A stretch of DNA of 64,000 nucleotides, taken from NCBI RefSeq assembly GCF_022846255.1, contig NZ_AP025682.1, one strand, 5' to 3'. The position numbers are program-made. Below, piece by piece: positions 20,077-23,000 of this stretch (position 1 is its first letter; each line of letters starts with the position of its first letter). The DNA is from Escherichia coli (GTDB taxonomy: Bacteria; Pseudomonadota; Gammaproteobacteria; Enterobacterales; Enterobacteriaceae).

Positions 20077-23000
20077 TAATTCCAGGGATTTATCAATGAA
20101 ACAAACACAACGTCACAACGGTATTATCGAACTGGTTAAACAGCAGGGTTATGTCAGCACCGAGGAGCTGGTAGAGCATTTCTCCGTTAGCCCGCAGACT
20201 ATTCGCCGCGATCTCAACGAGCTGGCAGAGCAAAACCTGATCCTGCGCCATCATGGCGGTGCGGCGCTGCCTTCCAGTTCGGTTAATACGCCGTGGCACG
20301 ATCGCAAGGCCACCCAGACCGAAGAAAAAGAGCGCATCGCACGCAAAGTGGGGGAGCAAATTCCCAATGGCTCGACGCTGTTTATCGATATCGGCACCAC
20401 GCCGGAAGCGGTGGCGCACGCGCTGCTTAATCACAGCAATTTACGCATTGTGACCAACAATCTCAACGTCGCTAACACGCTGATGGTAAAAGAGGATTTC
20501 CGTATCATTCTTGCCGGTGGCGAATTACGCAGCCGCGATGGCGGGATCATTGGCGAAGCAACGCTCGATTTTATCTCCCAGTTCCGCCTCGATTTCGGCA
20601 TTCTGGGGATAAGCGGCATCGATAGCGACGGCTCGCTACTGGAGTTCGATTACCACGAAGTTCGCACCAAACGCGCCATCATTGAGAACTCGCGCCACGT
20701 TATGCTGGTTGTCGACCACTCAAAATTTGGCCGTAACGCAATGGTCAATATGGGTAGCATCAGCATGGTCGATGCTGTCTACACCGACACGATGCCGCCT
20801 GCGAGCGTGATGCAGGTGCTGAAGGACCATCATATTCAACTGGAGCTGTGCTGATCCTGCATTGCTTCCCATGTCAGACCAAAACGCGCCAGGTATTTGC
20901 GTAGCCGATCCGCGTCATTGACGCTGGCTTTACCCTGGCGCGAAACATCAAAAAGCTGTCGTCCGGCAGCAGAAAGCGACTTTGCCTGGCGGCAGATAGC
21001 GATAACGTGTTCCAGTTGCATACGGTCGAAGAGATCGATGTTTTCTGCCTCTGCGCCCAGCAACGCCGTAAGCGTGGAGGGGCGACTCTCCTGCCAGTTA
21101 TAGCGCAGACGGTTGATCTCATCTTCCACCGTATCCAGTGTGATGCGTCCGCTAGTGGCAAAGGTGGCCATCCGCGTGACGCTGGCAGAAAGTTCGCGAA
21201 AGTTACCGCGCCATGTTGCCTGGGGAGAGGTCGCAAAGGCCAGCCAGGCACGCCGCGCTTCGGTGTTAAAACGCACGCTGTCGCCAGTGAGTGAGGCGTG
21301 GCGCTCCACTTCATAATCCAGGTTCGGTTCAATATCTTCCTGGCGTTGGCGTAATCCTGGCAAGGTGAAGGTCCAGAGATTTATTCGCGCGTACAGGTCT
21401 TCACGAAATTTGCCTTCGGCAACCAACTGGCGCAAATCGCGCACCGTTCCGGCGATAAGCTGAAAATCACTGCTCACCTGGCGATCGCTGCCAAACGGGT
21501 AAAAGGTTTTCTCTTCAATGGCTTTCAGCAGCATTGCCTGTTCGTCTGCGCCCAGTTCGCCAATCTCATCAAGAAACAACATTCCGCCGTTGGCGCTGCG
21601 TAATAATCCTTCACGCGATTCCCGCGCCCCGGTAAACGCGCCTTTCACATGACCAAACAGCGTCGACATGGCGGTATCGCCGCGCAGGGTGGCGCAGTTC
21701 ACTTCCACAAACGCGCCGCTAAACTGATGCCGCGCCTGTTTTAGCTCGAAGATACGTCGTGCCAGAAATGACTTACCTGCACCGGTCGGGCCGTTAAGCA
21801 GGATCGGTGCGCGGGATTTTATCGCCACTTTTTCAATCTGCTCAATCATGCGGTTGAAGTGGGAGTTACGCGTGGCAATACCGGACTTAAGAAAATCAAG
21901 CGTTTGCTGGCGTTCCTCGGCAAAGCGGCTGGCGATGGCGTTATAACGGCTTAAATCGAGATCGATAATCGTCACTGCGCCAGGGCTATCGGGCCGCTCT
22001 TTTTTGCGCGGTGGTGAAGATTGTATCAACCGGGTGGGCAGGTAACGCGCTTCTGCCAGCAGAAACCAGCAAATCTGCGCGACGTGGGTGCCGGTGGTGA
22101 TGTGAATTAAATACTCTTCTTTATCAGGTTGGAACGCGTAACCACGGGCGAAATCATGCAGGCAGGCGTAAACCTCTTCGAAATCCCAAGGGTTATGCAG
22201 TTCTATCTCAACGCCCACCACTTCTGTTTCTGGCGAAACGCTGGCGATATCGCGTTTAAGCGTTTCGAATAGCGAGCGCGAGCGGGCGTCGTGCAATAAT
22301 TCCAGCCGATCGATAACTAACGATTCTTGCTGGCATAGACAGAGTGTCGGACGCCATTTTGACCAGCGCTGACTGCCGCGCCCGGCATAATCCAGCACCG
22401 TTCCGACAAAGCCAAAAGCCACTGTTTTACGCATCTTAGATATCCTTATAAAAGACGAGATTTCATTATCGGTAAATCGGCTTTGCGGGAAATCTCCGTT
22501 TACGGACGTAAAAATATAATATTTTTAAAAACAATGAATTAAAAAATTAAGATGCTTATTTGATTTTCTGGCACGACGGTTGCAATTATCAGGACAGCAA
22601 ACAACGAAAAGAGAAAAACAAAATGAATTACGAATTACTGACCACTGAAAATGCTCCGGTAAAAATGTGGACCAAAGGCGTGCCGGTAGAAGCCGATGCG
22701 CGTCAGCAACTTATTAATACCGCGAAGATGCCATTTATTTTCAAACATATTGCGGTAATGCCTGATGTACACCTGGGTAAAGGTTCCACCATTGGTAGCG
22801 TGATCCCGACCAAAGGGGCGATTATTCCGGCGGCGGTGGGCGTGGATATTGGCTGTGGAATGAACGCACTGCGTACCGCGTTAACGGCGGCGGACCTGCC
22901 TGAAAACCTGGCAGAGCTGCGTCAGGCGATTGAAACGGCCGTACCGCACGGACGTACTACCGGGCGTTGTAAACGTGATAAAGGCGCATGGGAAAATCCG

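What the first reader, a model, noticed from the sequence alone, without database searches (positions are those of the whole stretch)
22435..22622. Canonical sigma-54 promoter and RtcR-controlled RNA repair operon rtcBA
An exact TGGCAC-N5-TTGCA lies at 22569-22584 in the divergent rtcR/rtcB spacer. RtcR is a sigma-54 activator, and its N-terminal domain has been described as CARF-like. RtcB (RNA ligase) and RtcA (RNA 3'-phosphate cyclase) form a stress-induced RNA repair system. This is known biology, noted because it is an RNA-damage response locus close to the accessory modules.
Basis: established knowledge. Interest (0 to 1): 0.2.

Follow-up and report, generated by a model that had tools for sequence, protein, structure and literature searches.

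The report
Known sigma-54 promoter of rtcBA
This is the well-studied sigma-54 promoter that lets the regulator RtcR switch on the E. coli RNA-repair genes rtcB and rtcA; it is real and intact here, conserved across species, and ordinary.

Summary
TGGCACGACGGTTGCA lies at 22569-22584 (+). It is the only exact TGGCAC-N5-TTGCA in the 64 kb window (0.04 expected). It sits in the 188-nt spacer between rtcR (20836-22434, -) and rtcB (22623-23849, +), with rtcA following (23853-24869, +).

The window is E. coli chromosome. From 22566 into rtcB the sequence is identical to K-12. There, this 17-mer is a published sigma-54 ChIP-seq site marked experimentally confirmed in EcoCyc.

RtcR loci from 19 other species, chosen without reference to the promoter, carry a -24/-12 motif at the same offset in 17 cases. 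Across four enterobacterial genera TGGCACG and TTGCAA never vary, while the four bases between them do.

All three proteins are full length with catalytic and sigma-54-contact motifs intact.

Modest additions:
- Predicted start site at C22595.
- An IHF-like site at 22529-22541.
- A conserved dyad at 22457-22472, a candidate RtcR enhancer. This lineage carries a T-to-G change in one arm.
- A 3.2-kb deletion of the whole module in about 11% of complete E. coli genomes.

The parts
20836..22434 (-). rtcR, the sigma-54 enhancer-binding activator (532 aa). It has an N-terminal RtcR/CARF-like domain, an AAA+ sigma-54 interaction domain and a C-terminal region.
   Evidence: ORF list. Pfam PF06956 at residues 2-185 and PF00158 at 187-354. 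RefSeq annotation of the 100% identical FEX669 record. GAFTGA at 265-270, Walker A GPTGAGKS at 215-222, DEIG at 289. 518 of 532 residues identical to K-12.
22435..22622 (.). The 188-nt divergent rtcR/rtcB control region
   Evidence: Sequence read. 95.7% identical to K-12. The published RtcR-responsive reporter used the 175 nt upstream of the rtcB ATG, which is 22448-22622 (PMC5175333).
22457..22472 (.). Conserved dyad: CGATA-N6-TATCG in K-12, CGAGA-N6-TATCG in the window. It is the best candidate for the RtcR enhancer (UAS), centred about -130 from the predicted start site, and may overlap the rtcR promoter. This assignment is inferred, not shown.
   Evidence: 12 of 16 columns are invariant across four enterobacterial genera, against 13 of 93 for the rest of the upstream spacer. 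Perfect dyads with the same centre, 103-105 nt upstream of TGGCA, occur in K. oxytoca, Intestinirhabdus (11-nt arms) and Superficieibacter. The window's G at 22460 breaks one arm.
22529..22541 (+). IHF-like site AAACAATGAATTA, one mismatch to WATCAANNNNTTR, centred about -60
   Evidence: Perfect consensus sites lie on the same strand within 1-2 nt of the same offset in Iodobacter, Accumulibacter and three Pseudomonas species, each with a shuffle probability of about 1-2%. PMC9650030 mentions 'the rtc IHF binding site' without coordinates.
22569..22584 (+). Sigma-54 promoter core TGGCACGACGGTTGCA, with the -24 GG at 22570-22571 and the -12 GC at 22582-22583
   Evidence: Identical to K-12. Published ChIP-seq site and known-promoter listing. 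Invariant in seven divergent E. coli alleles. TGGCACG is 7/7 and TTGCAA 6/6 invariant across four genera, while the N4 between them is 1/4.
22595..22595 (+). Predicted transcription start (C), giving a 28-nt leader to the rtcB ATG
   Evidence: This follows the rule used in PMC4591121: motif centre (22576) plus 19. The resulting distance of 28 equals their tabulated value for rtcB. The -1/+1 bases are A22594 and C22595, which matches the ApC primer used for the native PrtcBA in PMC9650030. It was not measured in this strain.
22623..23849 (+). rtcB, RNA 3'-phosphate/2',3'-cyclic phosphate ligase (408 aa)
   Evidence: Pfam PF01139 at 4.8e-133. RefSeq annotation. 404 of 408 residues identical to K-12; H337, C78, D75, H168, H185 and H281 are present.
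23853..24869 (+). rtcA, RNA 3'-terminal phosphate cyclase (338 aa). Its start lies 4 nt after the rtcB stop (an in-frame ATG also sits at 23850), behind AAAGGA.
   Evidence: Pfam PF01137 and PF05189. RefSeq start. Sequence read. H308 is present and 327 of 338 residues are identical to K-12.
24883..24906 (.). Hairpin GCCGGAT-N10-ATCCGGC in the 42-nt gap between the convergent rtcA and malT genes; a possible end of the operon
   Evidence: Read directly from the sequence. It was not called by the terminator scan because it has no T-run.

Best explanation
The site at 22569-22584 is the sigma-54 (RpoN) -24/-12 promoter of the rtcBA operon. RNA polymerase carrying sigma-54 binds it as a closed complex that cannot start transcription on its own.

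RtcR is made from the divergent gene. It is held inactive by its CARF-like N-terminal domain until RNA damage signals appear; tRNA fragments ending in 2',3'-cyclic phosphate have been reported. RtcR then oligomerises on an upstream enhancer. I infer that enhancer to be the conserved dyad at 22457-22472.

RtcR is brought to the polymerase by a DNA bend at the IHF-like site (22529-22541, inferred). It uses ATP hydrolysis and its GAFTGA loop to open the promoter. Transcription starts at about C22595 and yields an rtcB-rtcA mRNA encoding the RNA ligase and the RNA 3'-phosphate cyclase.

What was tested here: the motif, its uniqueness in the window, the gene identities, motif conservation and protein integrity. 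What was shown by others on the identical K-12 sequence: sigma-54 occupancy, RtcR dependence and constitutive activity of CARF-deleted RtcR. What is inferred: the enhancer and IHF site coordinates, the exact start site in this strain, and possible autoregulation of rtcR.
For: - The motif is exact and unique in the window, with a chance expectation of 0.04.
- The flanking genes are RtcR, RtcB and RtcA by Pfam and by RefSeq annotation of a 100% identical genome.
- The core and leader are identical to K-12.
- The Salmonella orthologue TGGCACGCTGGTTGCAAT binds sigma-54 and shows strong sigma-54-dependent reporter activity (PMC3844500).
- RtcR-dependent reporter activity comes from the 175 nt upstream of rtcB (PMC5175333). 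CARF-deleted RtcR is constitutively active in vitro (PMC9650030).
- Loci were selected through the RtcR protein, not the motif. Of these, 17 of 19 have a -24/-12 element 120-170 nt divergent from rtcR.
- The -24 and -12 blocks are invariant across four genera, while the intervening N4 and most of the spacer vary.
- The core is invariant in seven divergent E. coli alleles.
- RtcR retains GAFTGA and the Walker A and B motifs.
- No sigma-70-like promoter was found on the rtcB strand of the spacer.
Against: - Nothing was measured in this strain.
- The native promoter was described as very weak in vitro, and its -24/-12 had to be replaced by that of nifH for the assays (PMC9650030).
- Some stimuli raise rtcBA expression independently of RtcR in Salmonella, possibly through other promoters (PMC9650030).
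- The window's lineage has a T-to-G change in one arm of the candidate enhancer. Related lineages have deleted the whole module, so selection on it may be relaxed in part of the species.
- The original start-site mapping paper (Genschik et al. 1998) could not be read here.
Confidence: 0.96

Rival explanations
1. [quoted passage not shown]
For: Most sigma-54 binding sites in E. coli appear transcriptionally inactive under any one condition (PMC4591121). RtcR-independent induction has been reported in Salmonella (PMC9650030). The native promoter is weak in vitro.
Against: The consensus scan finds no sigma-70-like promoter on the + strand between rtcR and rtcB. PMC3844500 states that the cloned rtcBA promoter region has no predicted sigma-70 promoter and that its activity is sigma-54-dependent. 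The site is classed as experimentally confirmed. The -24/-12 blocks are conserved at a fixed offset next to rtcR from Escherichia to Desulfovibrio relatives.
Confidence: 0.02
2. The promoter core is intact, but in this lineage the module is functionally weakened. The T-to-G change at 22460 damages the RtcR enhancer, so RtcR activates poorly, a step on the way to the loss seen in other lineages.
For: G at 22460 breaks a dyad that is perfect in K-12 and three other genera. The exact 41-mer carrying G is shared by 517 genomes, including Nissle 1917 and ATCC 11775. 587 genomes, including ST131 O25:H4, have deleted 21220-24452.
Against: The dyad has not been shown to be the RtcR site. All three proteins are full length with their key motifs, which argues against long-standing disuse. 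One half-site change often has little effect on an oligomeric activator. The variant is common and stable.
Confidence: 0.1
3. The match is a chance occurrence with no function.
For: 3 of 100 shuffled windows contained an exact match.
Against: The position is exact: it lies between a sigma-54 activator gene and its target operon, 54 nt from the ATG as in K-12. There is cross-species conservation with a variable N4 and published ChIP-seq occupancy.
Confidence: 0.005

Closest known systems
E. coli K-12 rtcBA promoter (rtcBp; sigma-54 ChIP-seq site OS35 in PMC4591121; Genschik et al. 1998)
   Same: The sequence is identical from 22566 through the rtcB start codon, including the 17-mer CTGGCACGACGGTTGCA. 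The offset from the ATG is the same (-54..-37). The divergent rtcR is the same, as are the 188-nt spacer length and the gene order rtcR / rtcB-rtcA between glpR and malT.
   Different: There are eight substitutions in the upstream part of the spacer, including T-to-G at 22460 in the conserved dyad and A-to-G at 22565. The proteins differ at 14, 4 and 11 residues for RtcR, RtcB and RtcA. glpR next door is intact here but is a pseudogene in K-12.
Salmonella Typhimurium rsr-yrlBA-rtcBA promoter (rsrp)
   Same: The -24 and -12 blocks are the same (TGGCACG....TTGCAAT). It has the same activator RtcR from a divergent gene, and sigma-54 dependence has been shown (PMC3844500 and PMC9879122).
   Different: The N4 is CTGG rather than ACGG. 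In Salmonella the promoter is followed by the Ro60 homologue rsr and Y RNAs before rtcB. The window has no Y RNA (no Rfam match), and rtcB follows the promoter directly. The rsr/YrlA form was seen here in Intestinirhabdus and Superficieibacter.
Divergent activator/target sigma-54 units with an IHF bend, such as pspF / pspABCDE (comparison from general knowledge, not tested here)
   Same: An activator gene is transcribed away from its sigma-54 target. An enhancer lies about 100-130 nt upstream, with an IHF-type site between the enhancer and the -24/-12. The enhancer sits close to the activator's own start, so autoregulation is plausible.
   Different: RtcR senses through a CARF-like domain rather than through a partner protein alone. 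The RtcR enhancer sequence is given as 'NK' (not known) in the 2016 review table (PMC4987338).

Membership tests
Sigma-54 (RpoN) -24/-12 promoter | GG and GC dinucleotides exactly ten bases apart within TGGCAC-N5-TTGCW | tested here: met
   TGGCACGACGGTTGCA at 22569-22584, with no mismatch to TGGCACG-N4-TTGCW.
Sigma-54 (RpoN) -24/-12 promoter | Placed upstream of, and oriented towards, a gene, with a short leader | tested here: met
   On the + strand, 54 nt upstream of the rtcB ATG, with a predicted 28-nt leader.
Sigma-54 (RpoN) -24/-12 promoter | A cognate enhancer-binding AAA+ activator with a GAFTGA loop | tested here: met
   RtcR is encoded divergently. It has PF00158 at 7.6e-51, GAFTGA at 265-270 and a Walker A motif at 215-222.
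Sigma-54 (RpoN) -24/-12 promoter | Purifying selection on the -24 and -12 blocks but not on the bases between them | tested here: met
   TGGCACG is 7/7 and TTGCAA 6/6 invariant in four genera, against 1/4 for the N4 and 13/93 for the upstream spacer. 17 of 19 RtcR loci have the element.
Sigma-54 (RpoN) -24/-12 promoter | Occupancy by sigma-54 holoenzyme, and rpoN- and activator-dependent transcription | not testable with these tools
   Published for the identical K-12 sequence: ChIP-seq FAT 17 and EcoCyc 'confirmed', and RtcR-dependent reporter activity.
Sigma-54 (RpoN) -24/-12 promoter | An upstream enhancer (UAS) bound by the activator | tested here: inconclusive
   A conserved dyad at 22457-22472 is a good candidate. 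No binding data exist, one arm is altered in the window, and no common consensus was found outside Enterobacterales.
RtcR-RtcBA RNA repair module (E. coli type) | RtcB ligase with the His337 nucleophile and the metal ligands | tested here: met
   PF01139 at 4.8e-133. H337, C78, D75, H168, H185 and H281 are present. The residue roles come from general knowledge and from the H337A catalytic mutant used in PMC5175333.
RtcR-RtcBA RNA repair module (E. coli type) | RtcA cyclase with His308 | tested here: met
   PF01137 at 2.2e-80 and PF05189. H308 is present, and an H308A catalytic mutant is cited in PMC5175333.
RtcR-RtcBA RNA repair module (E. coli type) | RtcR with an N-terminal RtcR/CARF-like domain fused to the sigma-54 AAA+ domain, encoded divergently from rtcBA | tested here: met
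   PF06956 at residues 2-185 (1.3e-84) and PF00158 at 187-354. The arrangement is shown.
Salmonella-type rsr-yrlBA-rtcBA operon | A Ro60 homologue (rsr) and Y RNAs between the promoter and rtcB | tested here: not met
   rtcB starts 28 nt after the predicted start site. The window has no Rfam YrlA match, although YrlA was found in L008 and L021 in the same search.

The most novel reading that the evidence does not exclude
The conserved dyad (A)CGATA-N6-TATCG(T), centred about 130 nt upstream of the start site (window 22457-22472), is the RtcR enhancer. That sequence is given as unknown in the 2016 review table and does not appear in any paper I could search. Because it lies only 23-38 nt from the rtcR start codon, it may also let RtcR regulate its own gene. 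On this reading, the window's lineage (517 complete genomes, including Nissle 1917) carries a natural half-site variant, T-to-G at 22460. That variant could change how readily the RNA-repair response is induced, alongside the outright 3.2-kb deletion of the module in about 11% of genomes.
Probability: 0.3. Interest if true: 0.3.

Novelty: already known. Interest (0 to 1): 0.1.

Why it matters
As a finding it matters little. It is a textbook sigma-54 promoter in its expected place, and it mainly serves as a positive control showing that the first-stage reading was accurate.

The Rtc system itself is of current interest. It responds to tRNA and ribosome damage and has been linked to transient tolerance of ribosome-targeting antibiotics (PMC12606134, listed).

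Three small by-products may therefore be useful to people working on it:
- a candidate enhancer sequence,
- a common natural variant in that sequence, and
- a recurrent clean deletion of the module in lineages including ST131.

Tried and rejected
1. I first considered the inverted repeat GAGATTTC-N24-GAAATCTC (22457-22496, pair I9) as the enhancer. I rejected it. Its left arm is perfect only because of the window-specific G at 22460, and the right arm is not conserved outside Escherichia.

2. I tried short-query megablast counts of the promoter across all E. coli genomes. These give only lower bounds, because megablast needs a 28-nt exact word. 3,333 genomes share the exact 30-mer 22567-22596. 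The BL21 and O157:H7 alleles I fetched differ only at 22592 and 22596, outside the core, and variants like these probably account for the rest. A per-position census was not possible.

3. I searched for a common enhancer consensus beyond Enterobacterales. Dyads built on GATA/TATC or TAGAT/ATCTA recur near rtcR, but with different spacing and orientation, and the regions are AT-rich. I make no claim from this.

4. A sigma-70 promoter scan of the spacer found nothing on the rtcB strand. The rtcR promoter was not located either.

5. An Rfam scan of the whole window found no match at the gathering threshold.

6. Genschik et al. 1998 (start-site mapping) and Kurasz et al. 2018 are not in the held library.

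7. The proteins are 97-99% identical to characterised K-12 proteins.

Full report
**What is in the sequence.**
The stretch 22435-22622 is the complete 188-nt spacer between two divergent genes. On the minus strand an ORF of 532 codons starts at 22434. On the plus strand an ORF of 408 codons starts with ATG at 22623. A 338-codon gene follows 4 nt after the second ORF's stop, behind an AAAGGA ribosome-binding sequence.

The string TGGCACGACGGTTGCA lies at 22569-22584 on the plus strand. It is the only exact TGGCAC-N5-TTGCA in the 64-kb window. Dinucleotide-preserving shuffles give 0.04 per window. It also matches TGGCACG-N4-TTGCW with no mismatch. The next best site in the window has one mismatch and lies inside yhgF.

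**What the genes are.**
Pfam places the three products in the expected families:
- RtcR: PF06956 at residues 2-185, then the sigma-54 interaction domain PF00158 at 187-354.
- RtcB: PF01139 at 4.8e-133.
- RtcA: PF01137 plus its insert domain.

The region 20800-24900 is 100% identical to the chromosome of E. coli O150:H6 FEX669. That record annotates it as rtcR, rtcB and rtcA between glpR and malT, and K-12 has the same order.

Against K-12 the proteins are 518/532, 404/408 and 327/338 identical. The key residues are all present:
- RtcR: the GAFTGA sigma-54 contact loop (265-270), Walker A (215-222) and DEIG (289).
- RtcB: His337 and the metal ligands.
- RtcA: His308.

**Comparison with K-12 and the literature.**
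The spacer differs from K-12 at eight positions, all upstream of 22566. From 22566 into rtcB the two are identical.

Several papers cover this sequence or its close relatives:
- PMC4591121: the 17-mer CTGGCACGACGGTTGCA is intergenic sigma-54 ChIP-seq peak OS35 for rtcB (enrichment 17). It is flagged as one of the experimentally confirmed EcoCyc promoters, with 28 nt from the predicted start to the gene.
- PMC2831329: the site is listed under known sigma-54 promoters at -54 to -37 from the ATG, the same offsets as in the window.
- PMC5175333: the 175 nt upstream of rtcB were used as an RtcR-responsive reporter.
- PMC9650030: CARF-deleted RtcR is constitutively active in vitro. The native promoter is weak. 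ApC was used as the -1/+1 primer for the native promoter.
- PMC3844500: in Salmonella the orthologous site TGGCACGCTGGTTGCAAT, upstream of rsr, binds sigma-54 and shows strong sigma-54-dependent reporter activity.

The start-site rule of PMC4591121 is motif centre plus 19. Applied here it puts +1 at C22595. That makes A22594/C22595 the -1/+1 pair, in agreement with the ApC primer.

**Independent test by conservation.**
I fetched loci through the RtcR protein, so the selection did not depend on the promoter. Nineteen of the 21 loci encode a full-length RtcR relative. They range from other Escherichia species to Pseudomonas, Iodobacter, Accumulibacter, a myxobacterium and Desulfovibrio relatives. 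In most, rtcB and/or rtcA lie divergent from rtcR.

Seventeen of the 19 carry a -24/-12 element 120-170 nt from the rtcR start, pointing away from it. I compared K-12, Klebsiella oxytoca, Intestinirhabdus and Superficieibacter column by column:

| Segment | Invariant columns |
|---|---|
| TGGCACG (-24 block) | 7 of 7 |
| TTGCAA (-12 block) | 6 of 6 |
| Four bases between them | 1 of 4 |
| Spacer between the enhancer block and the promoter | 13 of 93 |

Seven divergent E. coli alleles keep 22566-22591 unchanged. BL21 and O157:H7 differ only at 22592 and 22596. This is the footprint expected of a working sigma-54 promoter.

**The rest of the control region (inferred).**
Two further conserved features appear.

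The first is a block at 22446-22472, with 19 of 27 columns invariant in four genera. It contains a dyad:
- K-12: CGATA-N6-TATCG.
- K. oxytoca: ACGATA-N6-TATCGT.
- Superficieibacter: GCGATAAT-N2-ATTATCGC.
- Intestinirhabdus: 11-nt arms.

All four are centred 103-105 nt upstream of TGGCA, about -130 from the start site. The symmetry is kept while the arm length changes, which points to a dimeric DNA-binding protein. RtcR is the obvious candidate.

A 2016 review table gives the RtcR enhancer as not known (PMC4987338). The dyad string occurs in no paper I could search. The dyad lies inside the 175-nt reporter fragment. It is also only 23-38 nt from the rtcR start codon, so it could instead, or in addition, belong to the rtcR promoter.

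The second feature is AAACAATGAATTA at 22529-22541, one mismatch from the IHF consensus. Perfect consensus sites occupy nearly the same offset and strand in Iodobacter, Accumulibacter and three Pseudomonas species. Each has only a 1-2% chance of arising in shuffled sequence. This fits the 'rtc IHF binding site' mentioned without coordinates in PMC9650030.

**Rivals.**
- A sigma-70 promoter for rtcB is not supported. The scan finds none in the spacer, and the Salmonella authors chose this promoter because it lacks one.
- Chance is excluded by position and conservation.
- A weaker version remains open. The window has G instead of T at 22460, which breaks one arm of the dyad. The exact 41-mer with G is shared by 517 complete genomes, including Nissle 1917 and ATCC 11775. 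This might lower the RtcR response, but all three genes are intact, so I rate it at about 0.1.

**Population context.**
Of 5,426 complete E. coli genomes, 4,837 carry the whole 4.1-kb module. 587 carry only about 21% of it. In an ST131 O25:H4 example the segment 21220-24452 is missing. The deletion joins the 3' part of rtcR to the 3' part of rtcA at a 14-nt repeat, CCGCGCCATGTTGC, present in both genes. The promoter, rtcB and both gene starts are lost.

**Verdict.**
It is already known biology, with the original work from 1998 and genome-wide confirmation from 2010 to 2015. Interest is low. The candidate enhancer, its natural variant and the deletion allele are minor additions that would need experiments.

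Noticed in passing
window 21220-24452 (compared with L003, NZ_AP022326.1): 587 of 5,424 matching complete E. coli genomes, including ST131 O25:H4 strains, lack this 3.2-kb segment: the 5' part of rtcR, the promoter, rtcB and the 5' part of rtcA. The junction lies in a 14-nt direct repeat, CCGCGCCATGTTGC, present in both rtcR and rtcA, which suggests a microhomology-mediated deletion.
   Followed up: partly
window 22460: The window has G where K-12, BL21, O157:H7, four other Escherichia species and three other genera have T. This is inside the conserved dyad CGATA-N6-TATCG. The exact 41-mer 22440-22480 with G occurs in 517 complete genomes, including Nissle 1917 and the type strain ATCC 11775.
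   Followed up: partly
window 7693-17129: A chaperone-usher fimbrial cluster (seven genes) plus three hypothetical genes, one of them frameshifted, lies between glgP and glpD. It is full length in only 556 of 5,426 complete genomes (for example LF82); most others have only the glpD-proximal part or a different insert. This is the 'accessory module' near the rtc locus.
   Followed up: partly
window 20836-20854: The 3' ends of the convergent glpR (20096-20854, +) and rtcR (20836-22434, -) overlap by 19 nt. glpR is intact here but is annotated as a pseudogene in K-12 MG1655.
   Followed up: no
L008 1259-2812 and 933-1174; L021 843-1216 and 1257-2810: In Intestinirhabdus and Superficieibacter the same promoter and leader block is followed by a 517-aa Ro60/Rsr homologue (Pfam vWA_Ro60, TROVE) and two or three YrlA Y RNAs before rtcB, which is the Salmonella-type operon. 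Escherichia has rtcB directly after the conserved leader.
   Followed up: yes
L007 2729-2812 (Klebsiella oxytoca): The promoter is followed by a 27-codon ORF, MANLLQFRS..., whose first residues resemble the start of Rsr in L008 and L021 (MANPLLFRP, MANPDLFRS). rtcB then starts about 50 nt after this ORF ends (at 2680). It looks like a remnant left by loss of rsr and the Y RNAs.
   Followed up: partly
L011 2565-2710; L010 1781-1853: tRNA-like genes lie just downstream of the RtcR-side sigma-54 promoter in Pseudomonas sp. GD03944 (Rfam tRNA 60 bits; ARAGORN calls one with an odd anticodon loop) and in Accumulibacter. They are probably the tRNA-like modules of bacterial Y RNAs rather than ordinary tRNAs.
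   Followed up: no
L031 5008-8088 (plasmid NZ_CP122915.1): 44 plasmid records match the 3' end of rtcA at about 88% identity. In the ETEC1706 plasmid, a truncated rtcA plus a complete malT sits next to a Tn21-type mer operon and IS1. This looks like a piece of enterobacterial chromosome captured on a plasmid.
   Followed up: partly
window 43453-43468 (-): TGGCCCGCGCATTGCT is the only one-mismatch match to TGGCACG-N4-TTGCW in the window. It lies inside yhgF (tex) in the sense orientation. yhgF does not occur in the text of the sigma-54 ChIP-seq paper (PMC4591121).
   Followed up: partly
window 24883-24906: A perfect 7-bp hairpin, GCCGGAT-N10-ATCCGGC, lies in the 42-nt gap between the convergent rtcA and malT stops. 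It has no T-run and may act as a two-way terminator or transcript-stabilising element.
   Followed up: no
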